This document shows positions 2,448 to 8,633 of a stretch of DNA of 64,000 nucleotides, piece after piece. The stretch comes from Enterobacteria phage vB_EcoM_IME540, in the sequence record MT150133.1. The stretch is one strand, 5' to 3'. The notes under the pieces are model-generated. The model ran no database searches and was not told the DNA's origin. It saw nothing but the letters and a program-made list of their open reading frames with translations. The position numbers and the translations under genes are program-made. Every line of letters starts with the position of its first letter. The stretch's first letter is position 1.

Positions 2448-2536
2448 ACAAAAGTCCTTTGTTGTTTTATACTATTTGCCTTTCGGCCTTAACCGATAGC
2501 GATTACCAAAAGCTAAAGCTCTACGGTTAGTATTAT

Positions 2537-2544
2537 TATTTATA
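2537..2544 (-). promoter_or_regulatory. candidate late promoter TATAAATA upstream of rI
   Basis: Exact TATAAATA on the minus strand in an ORF-poor gap, 90 nt upstream of the rI ATG. Chance occurrence is possible in AT-rich DNA. Confidence 0.35.
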
Positions 2545-2693
2545 GCTTTTTAAGCTTACGACAATAAGAATAGAACACGTCGTTAAAATTATGCTCAACC
2601 CAATTCCTCTGTATAGGCGAGGTAATGGAAAGCATATAATGCGCTTTAATTAAATCCATCCCATTTTTATTAGGACACTCTTTATTATTAGCA

Positions 2694-2819
2694 TTATACG
2701 TCGCTGCTACAACCTTCTATCTCTCTTTTGTAAGCCACATCATCCATGATAGGCGAAAGAACAATATAAGAAATAGCCACAGCGAACGCTAGAATTAAAA
2801 TCTTTGAATTTAGGTCCAT
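2694..2819 (-). CDS. possible 41-aa membrane peptide
   Basis: MDLNSKILILAFAVAISYIVLSPIMDDVAYKREIEGCSSDV. GAGGG SD lies within the last codons of tk. Has an N-terminal hydrophobic helix. Confidence 0.35.
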   Translation of the reverse strand: MDLNSKILILAFAVAISYIVLSPIMDDVAYKREIEGCSSDV

Positions 2820-2826
2820 AGTACCC

Positions 2827-3399
2827 TCAACTCGTTATTTCTATCCAGTGCTTCCTGCACAATGACACGTAAGAATCGTTGCCACCTATAGAAACTTGGG
2901 CTCCGTCCTTAATTGCGATACCATCTTGGATACGAGCCGTCATAGTAGCTTTACGGCCGCAATGGCACACACCTTTGTACTCAACGAGTTTATCTGCCGT
3001 AGCGAGTAATTCAGCAGAGCCAGGAAACAGTTTACCCTGAAAATCAGTTCTTAGCCCATAACACATAACTGGAACATTATAATTGTCTACTATCTTCGCC
3101 AGTTGTTTTATCTGTGCAGGTTCTAAGAACTGTGCTTCATCCACAAATACACAGTGGATATCTTTTTGAGATTCAGCCCAACGATAGAACTCGTATAGGT
3201 CCATATCCGGAGTCACGGCATTAGCCTCTTGACTAATCCCTATACGAGACGAAATGCTATGGCTTGATTCTCTATTGTCTACCGCGGGCTTTAAAAGGAG
3301 TACGCCCATACCACGTTCTTTGTAGTTATGAGCTGCCGTTAGCAATGAAGCGGTTTTCCCGGAATTCATCGCCGCATAGTGAAACATCAAGCTTGCCAT
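2827..3399 (-). CDS. tk: thymidine kinase
   Basis: 190 aa. P-loop MNSGKTASLL, VFVDEAQF, and a C-terminal Cys cluster CHCGRKAT...SLCRKH. Matches the T4 Tk pattern and position. Confidence 0.92.
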   Translation of the reverse strand: MASLMFHYAAMNSGKTASLLTAAHNYKERGMGVLLLKPAVDNRESSHSISSRIGISQEANAVTPDMDLYEFYRWAESQKDIHCVFVDEAQFLEPAQIKQLAKIVDNYNVPVMCYGLRTDFQGKLFPGSAELLATADKLVEYKGVCHCGRKATMTARIQDGIAIKDGAQVSIGGNDSYVSLCRKHWIEITS

Positions 3400-4124
3400 T
3401 TAAATACAACTCCTCTATAAGAGCAATTAGGATAACCTTTGCTTATAGCTATCTTTTTAAACATATATGCTGAAGGCTTATTGGATTCTTCCCATAAGAG
3501 TTTTAATTCATCGTAAAATTTCCAAGATTCGTTTCTTATAGGAGAAGGTTTTCCTGCCATAGCGCCCTTTTTACCGTACATGGGATTCTTTTTGCCCTTT
3601 TTGGCGTTACTCATATTTTCTATGGTTTCAGCGCTATGTTTAAATCCTTTTAATTTTTTAGAGGCTAATCCTATTTTAGCTTTATGCTCATCACTAAATC
3701 CTATTCTATTGGAATAATGGTTTAAACCTTTATTAGAAGTGGTGAATTTAGAAGCTTCTATTCTGGCTTTGCTCCATTTAACTCCTTTTCTAGACCTAGA
3801 CATTTTCTGTTTAGTTAAATTAGATAATTTGGTTCCTTTCTTTTTACCTCTTCCGCCATCAGCAAAATTTAAAGAATGCTTACCATATTTTAATTTAGCC
3901 TTTTCAACTAAAGGAATTTCGGCGGCATACGCCTCTTCTTCAGATTCGAAGAATTCTAATATACGAGTTTTATAAGGATGCTTTTTACAAATATTTTTAA
4001 CTACCGTACCACTTCCATAATACCCGTCTGAAAGATTATCAGTGGAGTGTTTACCTACATAGTAATAATTTGCCTTATGGGTTTTTATTACAGTCAAGTA
4101 ATTATAATGGAATTCCTTTGCCAT
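3387..4124 (-). CDS. GIY-YIG family homing endonuclease (Seg-like)
   Basis: N-terminal NYLTVIKTHKANYYYVGKHS...GYYGSG (GIY-x10-YIG type). Lys-rich NUMOD-like repeats (SDEHKAKIG..., SAETIENMSNAKKGKKNPMYGKKG). Overlaps the tk start by 13 nt. Confidence 0.75.
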   Translation of the reverse strand: MAKEFHYNYLTVIKTHKANYYYVGKHSTDNLSDGYYGSGTVVKNICKKHPYKTRILEFFESEEEAYAAEIPLVEKAKLKYGKHSLNFADGGRGKKKGTKLSNLTKQKMSRSRKGVKWSKARIEASKFTTSNKGLNHYSNRIGFSDEHKAKIGLASKKLKGFKHSAETIENMSNAKKGKKNPMYGKKGAMAGKPSPIRNESWKFYDELKLLWEESNKPSAYMFKKIAISKGYPNCSYRGVVFKWQA

Positions 4125-4133
4125 ATTACCTTC

Positions 4134-4325
4134 TTAAAGCGTATTCACATAAGCTATTAATTCGTTTTCTTTCTCATCAAATCGATTGACAAATTCTTCC
4201 TGATGTTCGGGAGATAGCGGGCCATATTCATCATAAAAAGAATTTGCTTCTGCATGCTCATCTAGAAGTTCATGGATAAGCTCAAACAATTTATCTTTCT
4301 GTTCTTTACTCAGACTCATAACCAT
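4134..4325 (-). CDS. hypothetical acidic helical protein
   Basis: Track ORF 4134-4340. The likely start is the ATG at 4325 or 4319; the latter forms an ATGA overlap with the upstream stop. Start uncertain. Confidence 0.5.
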   Translation of the reverse strand: MVMSLSKEQKDKLFELIHELLDEHAEANSFYDEYGPLSPEHQEEFVNRFDEKENELIAYVNTL

Positions 4326-4528
4326 TGTACCTTTAAGCAATATTCTTCTACATGCTGCTTACGTTTATTTTTATCTATAAAAGTATATTCAACATATTCA
4401 CCGATATACCATTTATCGGTGTTGTGTTGACTTTTTATAGGGCATTTAGTTACTCGGGTTTCGGACCAGTGTCGAATAATTTCCGCTTTATTTTTAGGGT
4501 CAAACGGATGCGGGTAATGGGCTTTCAT
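4316..4528 (-). CDS. hypothetical protein (70 aa)
   Basis: Track ORF overlapping the 3' end of the macrodomain gene by 29 nt. Confidence 0.5.
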   Translation of the reverse strand: MKAHYPHPFDPKNKAEIIRHWSETRVTKCPIKSQHNTDKWYIGEYVEYTFIDKNKRKQHVEEYCLKVQWL

Positions 4529-4967
4529 AATCTACCACCACTAAATTAATATCAGGAGTAAACAAATTAATCAATTGGTAAACCTTGTCCCAATCACCAC
4601 CAGCAATACCACAACCGATGCGAGGAATATAAATTCTTGGTTTAAACAAAAGACCTTTTGCTTGTTGATTTAATTCTATCATACAGTTTACTAAAGCACC
4701 GTAATCAAGATTAGGGCCTGGTTCGTATTGGGTGTATAAATTATAGCAAATTTGGCCCTTATTACCTGTGGCTTGAGTAAACGTGCCAAGTTTTTCCAAA
4801 TGGCCTAAATAAGTGGTTTTATCGATAGCGAGAATAGGCGGATAAGCCTTAGCCAATTGCCCAGCTACACCTGAACCCATTGTGTGGAAACAGTTACACC
4901 CGTGTGCAACATTATTACCTTGAAGAAATAGGGCGACAATATCGCCCTTAATATAATCAATAATCAT
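4500..4967 (-). CDS. macrodomain protein, TARG1/OARD1-like ADP-ribose binding/hydrolase
   Basis: 155 aa. HGCNCFHTMGSGVAGQLAKAYP and IPRIGCGIAGGDWDKV parallel the recalled human TARG1 motifs H-C-x-x-D-x-x-MGAGIA and PRIGCGLDRLQWENV. Sits where T4 tk.4 lies. Confidence 0.65.
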   Translation of the reverse strand: MIIDYIKGDIVALFLQGNNVAHGCNCFHTMGSGVAGQLAKAYPPILAIDKTTYLGHLEKLGTFTQATGNKGQICYNLYTQYEPGPNLDYGALVNCMIELNQQAKGLLFKPRIYIPRIGCGIAGGDWDKVYQLINLFTPDINLVVVDYESPLPASV

Positions 4968-5320
4968 TTAGAGTTTAATCCTCGATTGTATGAATCAACG
5001 AGTCTGTCTACCATAGACGCGCACATTTCTTTGTACTTTTTATCAGATGGAATACATTCAGTAACGTTTAGACGTTGCTCGTATCTTTTAGAAAGAGTTT
5101 TCTCTTTCATTCGACGATGCTCTACGTCGTTCTGCCCATCTTTAAAAGCAGCCGTGATTTTTGAACTGAATTCGATAATGCATTCAGTATTACTCGGATG
5201 ACAATAATCTTTTGCTGTACGGGTAGCATACTCGACAATTGAATTATTACTATCATAAACTTGTGACGCTAATACTCCCGGAGCAATCAACATAAGCGCT
5301 ATAGTCATCTGCTTAATCAT
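4964..5320 (-). CDS. secreted/periplasmic Cys-containing protein (118 aa)
   Basis: N-terminal signal peptide MIKQMTIALMLIAPGVLASQ and four Cys in the mature part. Sits where T4 vs lies, but identity was not verified. Confidence 0.55.
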   Translation of the reverse strand: MIKQMTIALMLIAPGVLASQVYDSNNSIVEYATRTAKDYCHPSNTECIIEFSSKITAAFKDGQNDVEHRRMKEKTLSKRYEQRLNVTECIPSDKKYKEMCASMVDRLVDSYNRGLNSK

Positions 5321-5884
5321 TTAATATACCGCCTCAAACATCTTTTTAGATTTTAGATAATTGGCCTTTTCTAGAACTTCAGAAGCATATTTACTGCCTG
5401 CTTCGACGTTCCAGCCCGCATTATAAGAAGCAATCGCTTTTCTCAGGTCACCTTTGTGAACATCAATCCAATAAGACAGTTCAATGTAGGCCCAAGAGGC
5501 ACTGTTCTGTCGTTTTTGGACCATACGAATTATTTCTTTGTCTGACATCTTCCAACCTACCTGTTGAACACGACTTCTTAACGTAGGCAAGTAATTTTGG
5601 AACATGCCATAAGCATGGTGCTTATCTTTATTTAAACCCTGATTAATTCCGGCAGATGATTCCTGCCATAGTAATCCGGCCATAATATATCCTAATCCTT
5701 TTTGATTAGGGGTTTCTTTGAACTTTCCCGACTTTTGGTATTGTTCACCGAAAGCATACGCATAATGTAAATTATCGAGCTGGGTTTCTGTAAATACGGG
5801 TTCTGCTGCACTTACAGAAAACGAACCACACATAATAGCCGCTATTAAAGAATATTTAAGTTTTTTTAGAAAAATCATAATCAA
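5321..5884 (-). CDS. secreted soluble lytic transglycosylase (SLT domain)
   Basis: Signal peptide ...CGSFSVSAAEP. All three SLT motifs are present: LLWQESSAG (catalytic E-S), YGMFQ and ASYNAGWN. Confidence 0.7.
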   Translation of the reverse strand: MIMIFLKKLKYSLIAAIMCGSFSVSAAEPVFTETQLDNLHYAYAFGEQYQKSGKFKETPNQKGLGYIMAGLLWQESSAGINQGLNKDKHHAYGMFQNYLPTLRSRVQQVGWKMSDKEIIRMVQKRQNSASWAYIELSYWIDVHKGDLRKAIASYNAGWNVEAGSKYASEVLEKANYLKSKKMFEAVY

Positions 5885-6590
5885 TAAGTCCTCGGTAATC
5901 TACATTAGGGAAGCCGTTCTTAATTGCGATTTTACTAAATCTTCCACACTTGAGCTTATTATTATCTACCCATAATTTATATAATTGTGAATACATCGGT
6001 TCATGCCATATAGGGGATTTACGCAAAGAGGCTTTTTTCCTTTCTATAGTTTCTTTAGAATTTTGTATGGCTTTAAATTTTTGTCTATTTTCAGGATTTT
6101 CAAAATACTTAACCCGTTTTTCAGACATTTTAGCTTTTACTTTTGGCGAATTTAAAATTTCTTTGAGCCGTTCTTTAGAGCCTTCCTTTTCAAAATACTT
6201 TATTAAAGCCATTGAATGAGCAGCCCTATTTTCCTTTTTAGAGAAAAATAAAATTTTATTAATAGATTGCAATTTTGAAAATGATTCTTTAGCCAACTTA
6301 TAATTTTCAGAATCTACAAAATAAGACCTTTGTTTTGAATTTGAAGTAGAGCTCATATTTAACCAGGCAAAATTCAACCCATAGTGGTTTGGATTAGCTT
6401 TGGCTAGATACATATGGGCCAAATAATGTTCATCAGCATAAAGCTCAACTAAATTGTCTTGAGTGTCAGGACCACCAACACAACTCGGAATTATATGATG
6501 CTTTTCTGTATAGGCGTCATTAGGTGTATCCCTAGATAAGGCCGCATTTATTATTTTATAGTAGTCATATGGATATTTTATAGTTTCCAT
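5856..6590 (-). CDS. HNH family homing endonuclease
   Basis: N-terminal EKHHIIPSCVGGPDTQDNLVELYADEHYLAHM (HNH core), a basic repeat region, and a C-terminal module shared with the GIY-YIG ORF 3387-4124. Inserted between the SLT gene and regB. Confidence 0.75.
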   Translation of the reverse strand: METIKYPYDYYKIINAALSRDTPNDAYTEKHHIIPSCVGGPDTQDNLVELYADEHYLAHMYLAKANPNHYGLNFAWLNMSSTSNSKQRSYFVDSENYKLAKESFSKLQSINKILFFSKKENRAAHSMALIKYFEKEGSKERLKEILNSPKVKAKMSEKRVKYFENPENRQKFKAIQNSKETIERKKASLRKSPIWHEPMYSQLYKLWVDNNKLKCGRFSKIAIKNGFPNVDYRGLIDYDFSKKT

Positions 6591-6597
6591 ACTGTCC

Positions 6598-7056
6598 TCA
6601 CAAGTAAATTACTTTCGTGCTGGTTTTACCTTCTAAACGTTTAGAGTTAACAAATGCCATACGACATTTAAGGGAATATCCTTTATCAGGATGTTTACGG
6701 TCTACTGTCATACCTAGCCATAAGGTTTTATCGGTAATTTCGAGACGCAATGGCCGATACACTTTACCAGGGACAATTTCGGATTCTACATCAGGCAGAG
6801 GTTCCTGGATTAAGAATTCATGGATTTCTTTAACATGGTTATGGAGTTGCTTGAATAAAGCAAAAACGTATTTTTCGTCGATTTCACGTTGGATAGCACG
6901 GTCCAACAAGTGGTTAGAGTACTTAATAAAGAAGGCTGGGACTCCGCTCTTAATGGCGGCTTTTTTGATGGACGTATTCAGTTCACGGAATTCGGTTTCG
7001 AACTGACGACGTAATTTATTGCGGCGGATGAATACTTCTGAATTAATTTCTGACAT
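6598..7056 (-). CDS. regB: RegB site-specific endoribonuclease
   Basis: 152 aa. MSEINSEVFIRRNKLRRQFETEF...LLDRAIQREIDEKYVF...YRPLRLEITDKTLWLG matches recalled T4 RegB (153 aa) throughout. Confidence 0.9.
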   Translation of the reverse strand: MSEINSEVFIRRNKLRRQFETEFRELNTSIKKAAIKSGVPAFFIKYSNHLLDRAIQREIDEKYVFALFKQLHNHVKEIHEFLIQEPLPDVESEIVPGKVYRPLRLEITDKTLWLGMTVDRKHPDKGYSLKCRMAFVNSKRLEGKTSTKVIYL

Positions 7057-7063
7057 TTTGTAA

Positions 7064-7106
7064 TCTCCTGTAGTTGATAGGTCTATAGTACCACGTCTAC
7101 AGGAGA
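7064..7106 (-). promoter_or_regulatory. 10-bp inverted repeat pairing the promoter spacer with the regB Shine-Dalgarno
   Basis: Minus strand TCTCCTGTAG (just after the -35) ... CTACAGGAGA (SD, 7 nt before the ATG). The loop holds the -10 and the start site. Confidence 0.7.
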
Positions 7107-7113
7107 TGTAAAC
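7085..7113 (-). promoter_or_regulatory. early promoter (GTTTAC -17 nt- TGGTACTAT)
   Basis: GTTTACATCTCCTGTAGACGTGGTACTATAGACCTATCAAC upstream of regB, with the conserved 15-mer. Confidence 0.75.
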
Positions 7114-7117
7114 TGCT

Positions 7118-7327
7118 TTATTCTTGGAATGGGGTAAGTTTTCCAGCAGCTGAACAAATTTCTACCAGTACAGGGTAAAACTCTTTCACTTGTTCAAGGC
7201 GTTGGGCTGCATACTGTACTTCACCTTCTTCGAGACAAGCCATTTGGTCGTCAAGCAAGTATTTGTGGTAGCCAGTACAGGCTTCACCGATGATACGCTG
7301 GAAATCTTGTAAACTTTCAATTTTCAT
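7118..7327 (-). CDS. hypothetical protein (69 aa)
   Basis: Track ORF trimmed to the ATG at 7327, which forms an ATGA overlap with the upstream stop. Confidence 0.55.
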   Translation of the reverse strand: MKIESLQDFQRIIGEACTGYHKYLLDDQMACLEEGEVQYAAQRLEQVKEFYPVLVEICSAAGKLTPFQE

Positions 7328-7605
7328 CAGTATTTTTCCTCGGGTTGGAAAACGGAACGACACGCCCACATACTTGCTTCTTTCAGACGGTCAATTGCAT
7401 TACGAATCTGGGTGATGCGTTCATGAGCCTGGTCTAGTTCTTGTTCAGAAACCTCTTCGGTATCTAAGTTCATATAATGAGTAACATGTTCTTCTTCCAG
7501 AGCTTTAAACATTAACCCAAGACGAACTTCAGCATCTTTGATAGCGTTTACTTTACCGATTTTATCGTCGGTATGCGGCTTATAACCCTTGATATCTTCA
7601 ATCAT
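7327..7605 (-). CDS. hypothetical protein (92 aa)
   Basis: Track ORF in translationally coupled packing. Confidence 0.55.
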   Translation of the reverse strand: MIEDIKGYKPHTDDKIGKVNAIKDAEVRLGLMFKALEEEHVTHYMNLDTEEVSEQELDQAHERITQIRNAIDRLKEASMWACRSVFQPEEKY

Positions 7606-7820
7606 TTCACTTCCTCGCCAGTTGCGATATCATATTCTACCAAACGAAGGCCTTCAGTCCAACCTTGCACGGAGATATAGGTAGTCGGGTAAATCATTTC
7701 TTTACCATTCCACCGACCGCCATCCCAGACTTCCAGAAAGTCTTGTTCACCTGGTCCATTAAGCCATTCAACAAATCTTTTCAGAGCTTCTTCAGAACCT
7801 TCAATTGTCAATTTAGACAT
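7602..7820 (-). CDS. hypothetical protein (72 aa)
   Basis: Track ORF with 4-nt overlaps on both sides. Confidence 0.55.
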   Translation of the reverse strand: MSKLTIEGSEEALKRFVEWLNGPGEQDFLEVWDGGRWNGKEMIYPTTYISVQGWTEGLRLVEYDIATGEEVK

Positions 7821-8109
7821 ATTTTTTCCAATCAGAAATCATATGAATCTCTTGGTCATAAGTCAAGAGACTACGAGCAATAATACCCTTACAAGGCCCT
7901 GAGATGAACTCGAGAGTGAAGTAAGGAACCTGTTTCATTAATCGGATACTAGGAGCATGACATCTAAAACGAGAGCCCTTAAAGGGCCCTGTCATGAATA
8001 CATATTCCAATGGGTAGAAATAAGCATATTCGAAATTTGCAGTAAGGTCCTCTCTTCGAACCTTACGTGAGAAATAACAGAACTCAAAAAGTTCTTCATC
8101 AGTCATCAT
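7813..8109 (-). CDS. hypothetical protein (98 aa)
   Basis: Track ORF trimmed to ATG 8109 (AGGAA SD; ATGATGA overlap with the upstream stop). Confidence 0.55.
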   Translation of the reverse strand: MMTDEELFEFCYFSRKVRREDLTANFEYAYFYPLEYVFMTGPFKGSRFRCHAPSIRLMKQVPYFTLEFISGPCKGIIARSLLTYDQEIHMISDWKKYV

Positions 8110-8633
8110 TGCATTCCTATCACAAAGAACAGAGGCAAAGGCTTGTCGCCTTGGCACATAAATTTATTAATCATTACCTGGTAAGCTTCATAGAACTTAT
8201 CCATCGCTGGAAGGCGCATTGGCTCTTCGATAATAATCAATAATCGAGTAACAGATAGTCCACGATACTTATGGAAATTGTCTTCATCAAGGAAACTGCG
8301 CACAGTATCATAGACAACAAAACCAGGACCTTCGACTTGGAGATGTGGGTGTGCCTTAGAAACCTGTTTTATTACATTACAAATTTCTCGCGAGCGATGC
8401 GAAGAACTCGACATAACAATCACATCATTACCCTTGGAAACCCAATCAGCGGCGAACTGAGCAAGGGCACTTGTTTTACCTGTTTGGCGTCCGCCATCAA
8501 GTCGAAGAGTACCAAACTCTTGCATTCTTGAAGCAGGTTCATACCATGTGTATTGGTCTGAGTCTAAACGTTCAATGGCGCGTTCAGCGAAGGCGTGCAT
8601 TAAGGTTAGATAAATGGGAGTTAAAAATTTCAT
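8106..8633 (-). CDS. P-loop NTPase-like protein (175 aa)
   Basis: Walker A GGRQTGKTS and a Walker B-like RLLIIIEEP. Confidence 0.55.
   Translation of the reverse strand: MKFLTPIYLTLMHAFAERAIERLDSDQYTWYEPASRMQEFGTLRLDGGRQTGKTSALAQFAADWVSKGNDVIVMSSSSHRSREICNVIKQVSKAHPHLQVEGPGFVVYDTVRSFLDEDNFHKYRGLSVTRLLIIIEEPMRLPAMDKFYEAYQVMINKFMCQGDKPLPLFFVIGMQ

What the first reader, a model, noticed from the sequence alone, without database searches (positions are those of the whole stretch)
4500..4967. TARG1/DarG-like macrodomain encoded in the early tk-regB block
The 155-aa product carries HGCNCFHTMGSGVAGQL and PRIGCGIAGGDW. These parallel the two signature segments of the TARG1/OARD1 branch of macrodomains as I recall them (H-C-x-x-D-x-x-MGAGIA and PRIGCGLDRLQW). 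That branch includes the antitoxin domain of DarG, which removes ADP-ribose from DNA. It also includes enzymes that remove ADP-ribose from acidic residues. A phage-encoded copy could erase host ADP-ribosylation-based defence marks (DarT-type DNA modification, or ART toxins). It could also edit the phage's own Alt/Mod ADP-ribosylation programme. The gene occupies the T4 tk.4 position, so it may be widespread but functionally unassigned.
Basis: partly seen in the sequence, partly recalled or inferred. Interest (0 to 1): 0.55.

Follow-up and report, generated by a model that had tools for sequence, protein, structure and literature searches.

The report
Phage macrodomain that counters DarTG2 defence

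Summary

The idea is not new. RefSeq has long noted T4 tk.4's A1pp (macro) motif. A November 2025 preprint (HIDEN-SEQ) found tk.4 as the single T4 gene needed on DarTG2 hosts and named it adfM.

One refinement: it is neither a DarG nor a TARG1 family member. The catalytic Lys (DarG K80, TARG1 K84, PhiKZ AdfM K78) is an invariant Gln80 here, and TARG1 Asp125 is Ala122. That matches the SCO6735/BT1257 Gln-type subclass, which cleaves thymidine-linked ADP-ribose without the lysine. The phage family lacks that subclass's long mobile loop. All 80 bacterial relatives examined are Gln-type, and no DarT was detected beside any of them.

Verdict: observation confirmed, interpretation supported, already known, low interest. 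Direct enzymology on the T4-type protein is still missing.

The parts
4500..4967 (-). tk.4 / adfM ortholog: 155-aa single-domain macrodomain protein (predicted DNA ADP-ribosylglycohydrolase)
4854..4904 (-). Residues 22-38, HGCNCFHTMGSGVAGQL: His22, Asn25 and the first glycine-rich ADP-ribose-binding loop (G31-S-G33)
   Evidence: H22, G23, N25 and G33 are invariant in 70 family members. N25 aligns with PhiKZ AdfM N23 and Taq DarG N22; the N23A mutation reduced PhiKZ AdfM activity (PMC13309987). H22 aligns with Poa1p His23.
4728..4742 (-). Residues 76-80, NLYTQ: end of the central strand. Gln80 occupies the position of the catalytic Lys of DarG (K80), TARG1 (K84) and PhiKZ AdfM (K78), and of Gln in BT1257 (SCO6735 Gln85 by the paper's structural alignment)
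   Evidence: N76, Y78 and Q80 are invariant. Register agrees in hhalign, hmmsearch and hmmalign. Gln in 80 of 80 bacterial relatives. SCO6735 Q85A/E is inactive (PMC9411070).
4590..4625 (-). Residues 115-126, PRIGCGIAGGDW: second (diphosphate-binding) loop. Ala122 sits at the TARG1 Asp125 position
   Evidence: Reverse-complement translation of the sequence. P115, G118 and G120 are invariant; A122, G123, G124 and W126 are conserved in 90% or more. Aligned to TARG1 GCGLDRLQW and BT1257 GCGLAGGKW.
4930..4948 (-). 8-bp stem-loop (AGGGCGAT-ATT-GTCGCCCT, about -13 kcal/mol) plus a U-rich tail, inside codons 7-13 of the ORF and 17-35 nt after the vs stop. Possible attenuator or terminator; function unproven
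   Evidence: Terminator-like scan. The 20-nt core is 100% identical to T4, including wobble positions. Kept in Tequatrovirus and Krischvirus, lost in five other genera. Annotated 'terminator' in MT682709.1.
4964..5320 (-). vs (valyl-tRNA synthetase modifier), immediately upstream. Its TGA stop overlaps the tk.4 ATG (ATGA at 4964-4967), which suggests co-transcription and translational coupling
   Evidence: ORF and sequence. A gene of the same length and position is annotated vs in EcWhh-1 and T4.
4316..4528 (-). tk.3 (DUF7202), immediately downstream; overlaps the tk.4 3' end by 29 nt

Best explanation
The ORF encodes the ortholog of T4 Tk.4/AdfM, a free-standing early-gene macrodomain that acts as an orphan antitoxin-like enzyme. 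When a host DarT2 toxin ADP-ribosylates thymidines on single-stranded phage DNA during replication, this protein binds the ADP-ribose in its macrodomain cleft and hydrolyses the thymine-ribose bond. That restores replicable DNA and lets the phage grow on DarTG2-carrying hosts. Its active site is of the SCO6735/BT1257 type. An invariant Gln80 replaces the catalytic Lys of DarG and TARG1, so catalysis is probably lysine-independent: Gln positions the substrate and a water network, as proposed for SCO6735. Shown here: fold, class, orthology, synteny and active-site residue identities. Shown in the literature for the T4 ortholog: the genetic requirement on DarTG2 hosts. Inferred: the enzymatic step for T4-type AdfM, and transfer of the phenotype to this phage.
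Against: No enzymatic assay exists for any T4-type (Gln) AdfM; the preprint only says hydrolysis 'seems likely'. The DarG/TARG1 catalytic Lys is absent. The SCO6735 mobile loop and its DNA-contacting Lys34/Lys89 are not conserved: Ser32 sits at the Lys34 position and the loop is 6 residues shorter. This phage's protein is only 53% identical to T4's and differs in loop 2 (GCGIAGG against GAGIGKG). Catalytically dead SCO6735 still inhibits DarT by binding, so protection need not be purely enzymatic. The T4 phenotype was measured at 30 C in minimal medium only.
Confidence: 0.75

Rival explanations
1. It is an ADP-ribose-1''-phosphate phosphatase or O-acetyl-ADP-ribose deacetylase that acts on small soluble ADP-ribose derivatives. 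These could be RNA-repair by-products or NAD-derived immune signals. This is the reading behind the RefSeq/PHROG label 'phosphatase'.
Against: The only phenotype on record for the ortholog is DarTG2-specific. Poa1p Phe152 corresponds to Ala122 and Ser30 to Thr29. The label comes from domain naming, not from an assay. No Tpt1/KptA-type source of Appr1p lies in the immediate neighbourhood.
Confidence: 0.08
2. It is a protein de-mono-ADP-ribosylase. It would either trim the phage's own Alt/ModA/ModB modifications or reverse host protein-targeting ART toxins.
For: TARG1 and SCO6735 both hydrolyse Glu/Asp-linked protein ADP-ribose (PMC9411070). The gene is in the early block, when the Alt and Mod enzymes act (established T4 knowledge).
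Against: By established knowledge Alt, ModA and ModB make arginine-linked ADP-ribose. The activities reported for this macrodomain class in the papers read here are Glu/Asp-linked protein ADPr, thymidine-DNA and uracil-RNA, not arginine-linked ADPr. The TARG1 Lys84/Asp125 dyad used for protein substrates is absent. The HIDEN-SEQ passages read here report tk.4 as a hit only on the DarTG2 host.
Confidence: 0.07
3. It chiefly erases ADP-ribose from RNA, for example uracil-linked or phosphate-linked marks laid by RNA-targeting ART defence systems.
For: TARG1, Taq DarG and SCO6735 all reverse uracil-base ADP-ribosylation of ssRNA in vitro (PMC13036486). RNA-targeting ART defences exist, such as CmdTAC (PMC11618068).
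Against: CmdTAC still defends robustly against wild-type T4, which carries tk.4, so Tk.4 does not neutralise that system. No uracil-ADPr defence system against phages appears in the papers read here.
Confidence: 0.05
4. It protects mainly without catalysis, by binding and blocking DarT2 or shielding modified DNA, as the small inhibitors AdfA and AdfB do for DarT.
For: Catalytically dead SCO6735 (Q85A) inhibited DarT in vitro more strongly than dead DarG or TARG1 (PMC9411070). The canonical catalytic Lys is missing here.
Against: The full ADP-ribose-binding and catalytic constellation is invariant across phage and bacterial relatives that have no DarT partner. That argues for selection on enzymology. 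The DarG C-terminal DarT-binding domain is absent.
Confidence: 0.05

Closest known systems
T4 Tk.4 = AdfM (anti-DarT factor Macrodomain), bioRxiv 10.1101/2025.11.20.689424
   Same: Same length (155 aa), 53% identity end to end, and the same position between vs and tk.3 in the tk-regB early block. Same NLYTQ strand and HGCNCFHTMGSGVAGQL motif. Same sole PADLOC hit, DarG.
   Different: Loop 2 is GCGIAGGDW here and GAGIGKGNW in T4. The 3' overlap with tk.3 is 29 nt here and 4 nt in T4. The phenotype has been tested only in T4.
SCO6735 (Streptomyces coelicolor) / BT1257 (Bacteroides thetaiotaomicron): the Gln-type subclass of ALC1-like macrodomains
   Different: The phage family lacks the roughly 5-6-residue extension of the mobile loop that defines the subclass: 8 residues against 14 between the Gln and the next conserved Tyr. 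SCO6735 Lys34 corresponds to Ser32. Identity is only about 24-28%.
DarG / DarG2 antitoxin macrodomain (T. aquaticus, M. tuberculosis)
   Different: Catalytic Lys80 is replaced by Gln80. There is no C-terminal DarT-binding domain (155 aa against about 340; NCBIfam DarG scores 20 bits against a cut-off of 250). It is not encoded next to a DarT.
PhiKZ gp104 'AdfM' (chimallivirus DarG2-like antitoxin), PMC13309987
   Same: A phage-encoded single macrodomain that counters DarTG2. It has the same name, and in vitro removal of DarT2 marks has been shown.
   Different: A different lineage. It is a close DarG relative (E=9e-25 to Mtb DarG) with FPTK Lys78. It shares only about 18% identity with the Tk.4 family (hhalign E=7e-10), and it is imported into the phage nucleus.
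Human TARG1 / OARD1
   Same: Top Foldseek hit (E=1e-9, TM about 0.8).
   Different: The Lys84/Asp125 catalytic dyad is replaced by Gln80/Ala122. Identity is 21-23%.

Membership tests
Macro domain superfamily (Pfam PF01661) | Profile score at or above the curated gathering score | tested here: met
   32.6 bits against 22, E=8.5e-8, covering profile positions 2-117 of 118.
Macro domain superfamily (Pfam PF01661) | Three-layer alpha/beta/alpha macro fold with two glycine-rich ADP-ribose-binding loops | tested here: met
   [not shown]
ALC1/TARG1-like macrodomain class | Closer in structure and sequence to TARG1, DarG, SCO6735 and Poa1p than to MacroD-, PARG- or viral nsp3-type macrodomains | tested here: met
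   [not shown]
AdfM of T4 (Tk.4 orthologous group) | Full-length homology and conserved genomic position between vs and tk.3 | tested here: met
   53% identity, 155 of 155 aa, E=8e-62. Synteny.
AdfM of T4 (Tk.4 orthologous group) | Required for phage growth on DarTG2-expressing hosts | not testable with these tools
   Shown only for T4.
DarG (DarG2) antitoxin | Catalytic lysine (Taq K80) at the end of the central strand | tested here: not met
   Gln80 occupies that column in hhalign, hmmsearch and hmmalign alignments.
DarG (DarG2) antitoxin | C-terminal DarT-binding domain; full-length model score | tested here: not met
   The protein is 155 aa. The NCBIfam DarG equivalog scores 20.3 bits against a cut-off of 250 and matches only model positions 3-138 of 338.
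DarG (DarG2) antitoxin | Encoded in an operon with a DarT toxin | tested here: not met
   The neighbours are vs and tk.3.
TARG1/OARD1 | Lys84/Asp125 catalytic dyad | tested here: not met
   Gln80 and Ala122 align to these positions. The TARG1 sequence was verified against PDB 2lgr.
SCO6735/BT1257 Gln-type subclass | Gln at the catalytic-Lys position plus the GCG[LI]AGGxW loop | tested here: met
   Q80 is invariant and A122, G123, G124 are conserved in 90% or more. Aligned with BT1257 NMIGQ and GCGLAGGKW.
SCO6735/BT1257 Gln-type subclass | Mobile loop about five residues longer than in DarG/TARG1 (PMC9411070) | tested here: not met
   BT1257 has a 6-residue insertion relative to the phage family. 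There are 8 residues here (as in TARG1), 14 in BT1257, and mostly 11 in bacterial relatives.
Poa1p-like Appr-1''-p phosphatase | Residues probed by the PDB mutants: His23, Ser30, Phe152 | tested here: inconclusive
   His23 aligns with invariant His22, Ser30 with Thr29 and Phe152 with Ala122. No activity data exist.

The most novel reading that the evidence does not exclude
The T4-type AdfM is not a captured DarG2 antitoxin. It would be a phage branch of the large bacterial family of orphan Gln-type macrodomains (SCO6735/BT1257-like). It would use a lysine-independent mechanism with a shortened mobile loop, and like SCO6735 it would have a wider substrate range (thymidine-DNA, uracil-RNA, Glu/Asp-protein ADP-ribose). 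If so, it would protect T4-like phages against ADP-ribosylating defences beyond DarTG2. The name 'AdfM' would then cover two independently recruited enzyme lineages with different chemistry.
Probability: 0.3. Interest if true: 0.4.

Novelty: already known. Interest (0 to 1): 0.15.

Why it matters
It shows that a sequence-only reading correctly predicted a counter-defence function that experiments have since confirmed for the T4 ortholog. The family occurs in 2,732 of 50,697 deposited phage genomes, and many of those records still call it 'hypothetical protein' or 'phosphatase', so they could be re-annotated as AdfM-type anti-DarTG2 macrodomains. The remaining scientific value is mechanistic. 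The T4-type enzyme lacks the DarG/TARG1 catalytic lysine, and nobody has yet tested its chemistry or substrate range.

Tried and rejected
(1) A 7-sequence MAFFT alignment put TARG1 K84 and DarG K80 two residues away from Gln80 and misplaced BT1257's Gln. I rejected it because three profile-based alignments and hmmalign to the family HMM agree with each other. They also agree with the model's strand boundary (E73-80) and with the published structure-based equivalence Gln85 = K84 = K80.

(2) The single-sequence phmmer alignment to BT1257 likewise put the loop gap before the strand, and the profile alignment supersedes it.

(3) DarG membership was rejected: the NCBIfam equivalog scores far below its cut-off, there is no C-terminal domain and no Lys.

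(4) The promoter-like scan of 2500-8500 was no better than shuffles (21 found against 18.7 +/- 4.6). Terminator-like sites were only about 2 sd above shuffles (8 against 3.8 +/- 2.0). No promoter claim is made.

(5) A DarT2 probe (P. aeruginosa 505 DarT2) found no DarT-like ORF within +/-4 kb of any of 80 bacterial relatives. Seven sampled neighbours gave six Pfam hits to unrelated genes (EamA, LspA, MarR, MscS, a MacroD-type Macro domain, DUF72) and one with no hit. A single-sequence probe has limited sensitivity.

(6) Literature searches for direct biochemistry on T4 Tk.4 found none beyond the HIDEN-SEQ genetics.

(7) The 'edits Alt/Mod' idea was considered and set aside on linkage chemistry: those enzymes make Arg-ADPr.

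Full report
OBSERVATION. The window has an ATG-initiated ORF of 155 codons at 4500..4967 on the minus strand. The ORF start overlaps the stop of the upstream gene (ATGA at 4964-4967), and its last 29 nt overlap the next ORF. Pfam identifies thymidine kinase at 2827..3399 and RegB at 6598..7056, so the 'tk-regB block' description is correct.

WHAT GENOME. The region is 95-97% identical to Dhakavirus-type T4-like coliphages such as PSD2002, Bp7 and WG01. The protein is 98% identical to a 'hypothetical protein / tk.4 gene product' of Dhakavirus EcWhh-1, which has the same gene order regB, vs.1, vs, tk.4, tk.3, tk.2, tk. T4 itself has tk, tk.1, tk.2, tk.3, tk.4, vs, vs.1, regB. RefSeq describes T4 tk.4 as 'phosphatase; contains A1pp phosphatase motif'. 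The window protein and T4 Tk.4 are both 155 aa and are 53% identical end to end (E=8e-62). This is the tk.4 ortholog.

FOLD AND CLASS. Pfam Macro (PF01661) is matched above its curated threshold (32.6 against 22 bits). PHROG 335 ('phosphatase') is matched at 3e-67. In PADLOC the only hit is DarG, for this protein (6.5e-6) and for T4 Tk.4 (1.3e-9).

CATALYTIC RESIDUES: WHERE IT IS NOT TARG1 OR DarG. I verified a recalled human TARG1 sequence against PDB 2lgr and found it identical. I took DarG sequences from printed PDB alignments and PhiKZ gp104 from the methods of PMC13309987.

hhalign, hmmsearch and hmmalign to the family HMM all place the family's invariant Gln80 (NLYTQ) in one column. That column holds TARG1 Lys84 (YLITK), DarG Lys80 (NFPTK), PhiKZ AdfM Lys78 (MFPTK) and the Gln of BT1257 (NMIGQ). 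Ala122 aligns with TARG1 Asp125. Asn25 aligns with PhiKZ Asn23 and Taq DarG Asn22, the residues drawn as the active site in PMC13309987. A small MAFFT alignment disagreed by two residues and was rejected.

This is the situation described for SCO6735 (PMC9411070). There, Gln85 replaces the catalytic Lys, and Q85A/E mutants are inactive. The enzyme still removes thymidine-linked ADP-ribose from DarT-modified DNA faster than DarG or TARG1, rescues E. coli from DarT, and also acts on protein substrates. However, the defining extra of that subclass, a mobile loop about five residues longer, is absent from the phage family. There are 8 residues between Gln80 and the next conserved Tyr, as in TARG1, against 14 in BT1257. 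SCO6735 Lys34 corresponds to Ser32. The phage Tk.4 family thus combines a Gln-type centre with a DarG/TARG1-length loop.

WHAT IS ALREADY KNOWN. [quoted passage not shown] A clean knockout sensitised T4 to DarTG2. The authors noted AlphaFold similarity to the Mtb DarG macrodomain and named the gene adfM. They inferred, but did not show, enzymatic removal of ADP-ribose from DNA.

Independently, Cell Reports 2026 (PMC13309987) named the PhiKZ macrodomain gp104 'AdfM'. That study showed in vitro removal of DarT2 marks, rescue from DarT2 toxicity, and DarTG2 sensitivity of mutants. PhiKZ gp104 is a genuine DarG-type protein (E=9e-25 to Mtb DarG, Lys78) and only about 18% identical to the Tk.4 family. 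The two 'AdfM' proteins therefore belong to different lineages of the class.

The companion system is also known: T4 30.3/AdfN, a NADAR enzyme, counters DarTG1 (PMC11825919). Deposited phage genomes already label homologs 'macro domain protein', 'Appr-1-p processing protein', 'Poa1p-like' or 'ADP-ribose binding module'.

DISTRIBUTION AND ORIGIN. tblastn finds the family in 2,732 of 50,697 phage records at E of 1e-5 or better. These include Straboviridae of many genera and also Felixounavirus-, Vequintavirus-, Pakpunavirus- and Kuttervirus-type phages.

A scan of one genome per bacterial species found at least 479 loci encoding relatives at 32-43% identity, in Rhodobacterales, Desulfobacterota, Verrucomicrobiota, Planctomycetota, Bacteroidota and others. 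In the best 80, Gln occupies the catalytic column in 80 of 80; that column was not part of the search patterns. The loop is mostly 11 residues. No DarT2-like ORF lies within +/-4 kb. Of seven sampled neighbours, six matched unrelated Pfam families (EamA, LspA, MarR, MscS, DUF72 and a MacroD-type Macro domain) and one had no hit.

This favours descent of Tk.4-type AdfM from orphan Gln-type macrodomains rather than capture of a DarG2 antitoxin. It remains an inference: the search patterns were biased towards this motif set, the DarT probe was a single sequence, and no tree was built.

MECHANISM. The best-supported model is an early-expressed, free-standing ADP-ribosylglycohydrolase, probably co-transcribed and translationally coupled with vs. 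It strips DarT2-installed ADP-ribose from thymidines on single-stranded phage DNA. Gln80 and Asn25 would position the substrate and a water network instead of a Lys nucleophile or base.

Steps shown here: fold, class, orthology, and invariance of the pocket. Shown elsewhere: the T4 genetic requirement, the activity of Gln-type SCO6735, and the activity of Lys-type PhiKZ AdfM. Inferred: the activity of T4-type AdfM and the phenotype in this phage.

Rivals follow.
- Small-molecule Appr-1''-p or OAADPr processing is the source of the 'phosphatase' label. His22 matches Poa1p His23, but Phe152 corresponds to Ala122.
By established knowledge those enzymes make Arg-linked ADP-ribose, and the TARG1 dyad is absent.
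- RNA de-ADP-ribosylation is possible in vitro for the class (PMC13036486). But CmdTAC still defends against tk.4-bearing T4 (PMC11618068).
- Non-catalytic DarT inhibition has a precedent: dead SCO6735 inhibits DarT.

VERDICT. The finding is already known: the macrodomain annotation is long-standing, and the anti-DarTG2 role was published for the T4 ortholog in 2025. The only increment here is the residue-level classification. The protein is a Gln-type, short-loop macrodomain that is not a DarG or TARG1 family member and is distinct from the PhiKZ 'AdfM'. There is also evidence that its nearest cellular relatives are orphan macrodomains. Interest is low (0.15).

SIDE OBSERVATIONS. A stable hairpin sits inside codons 7-13 of the ORF (4930-4948, minus strand). 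It is identical at every wobble position between this phage and T4, although the proteins are only 53% identical. It is preserved with a changed loop, and the closing T.G pair becomes T-A, in Krischvirus. It is lost in Gelderland-, Karam-, Jiaoda-, Lazarus- and Tulanevirus. One GenBank record annotates it as a terminator.

Two homing-endonuclease-like ORFs interrupt the block relative to EcWhh-1: 3387..4124, which has a NUMOD3 motif, and 5856..6590.

Noticed in passing
window 4930-4948 (minus strand), inside codons 7-13 of tk.4: Stem-loop AGGGCGAT-ATT-GTCGCCCT (about -13 kcal/mol) followed by a U-rich tract, 17-35 nt after the vs stop. The 20-nt core is 100% identical to T4, including all synonymous positions, while the proteins are 53% identical. 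It is kept in Tequatrovirus and Krischvirus (different loop; the T.G closing pair becomes T-A) and lost in five other genera. MT682709.1 annotates it as a terminator. It could be an attenuator between vs and tk.4.
   Followed up: partly
window 3387-4124 (-) and 5856-6590 (-): Two homing-endonuclease-like ORFs. The first carries a NUMOD3 motif. The second has an HNH-looking EKHHIIP...DNLV...HYLAH segment but no Pfam hit at E of 1e-3 or better. They are inserted between tk and tk.2 and between vs.1 and regB. Both are absent from the 98%-identical relative EcWhh-1 and from most relatives (61-82% query coverage).
   Followed up: partly
literature; PhiKZ gp104 versus window 4500-4967: The name 'AdfM' is used for two different macrodomain lineages. 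T4 Tk.4 is Gln-type and SCO6735/BT1257-like. PhiKZ gp104 is Lys-type, a close DarG relative at E=9e-25 to Mtb DarG. They share only about 18% identity.
   Followed up: yes
loci L012-L091 (bacterial genomes): At least 479 bacterial loci from many phyla encode relatives of the phage protein. In the best 80, all have Gln at the catalytic column, an intermediate mobile-loop length (mostly 11 residues) and no detectable DarT within 4 kb. Neighbours are unrelated housekeeping genes. In L086 the adjacent gene is a second, MacroD-type macrodomain.
   Followed up: partly
window 4500-4528: The tk.4 3' end overlaps the tk.3 start by 29 nt, as in EcWhh-1, NiC89 and SP1. T4 has a 4-nt overlap. The last 10 or so residues of the protein are predicted disordered (pLDDT about 49).
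   Followed up: no
[not shown]
   Followed up: no
T4 biology / DarT2 motif (no window coordinates): DarT2 targets the second T of TNTC motifs (PMC13309987). In T4-like phages every C is glucosyl-hydroxymethylcytosine, yet T4 lacking adfM is still restricted by DarTG2. So DarT2 either tolerates modified C in its motif or acts before or around the modification. The papers read here do not address this.
   Followed up: no
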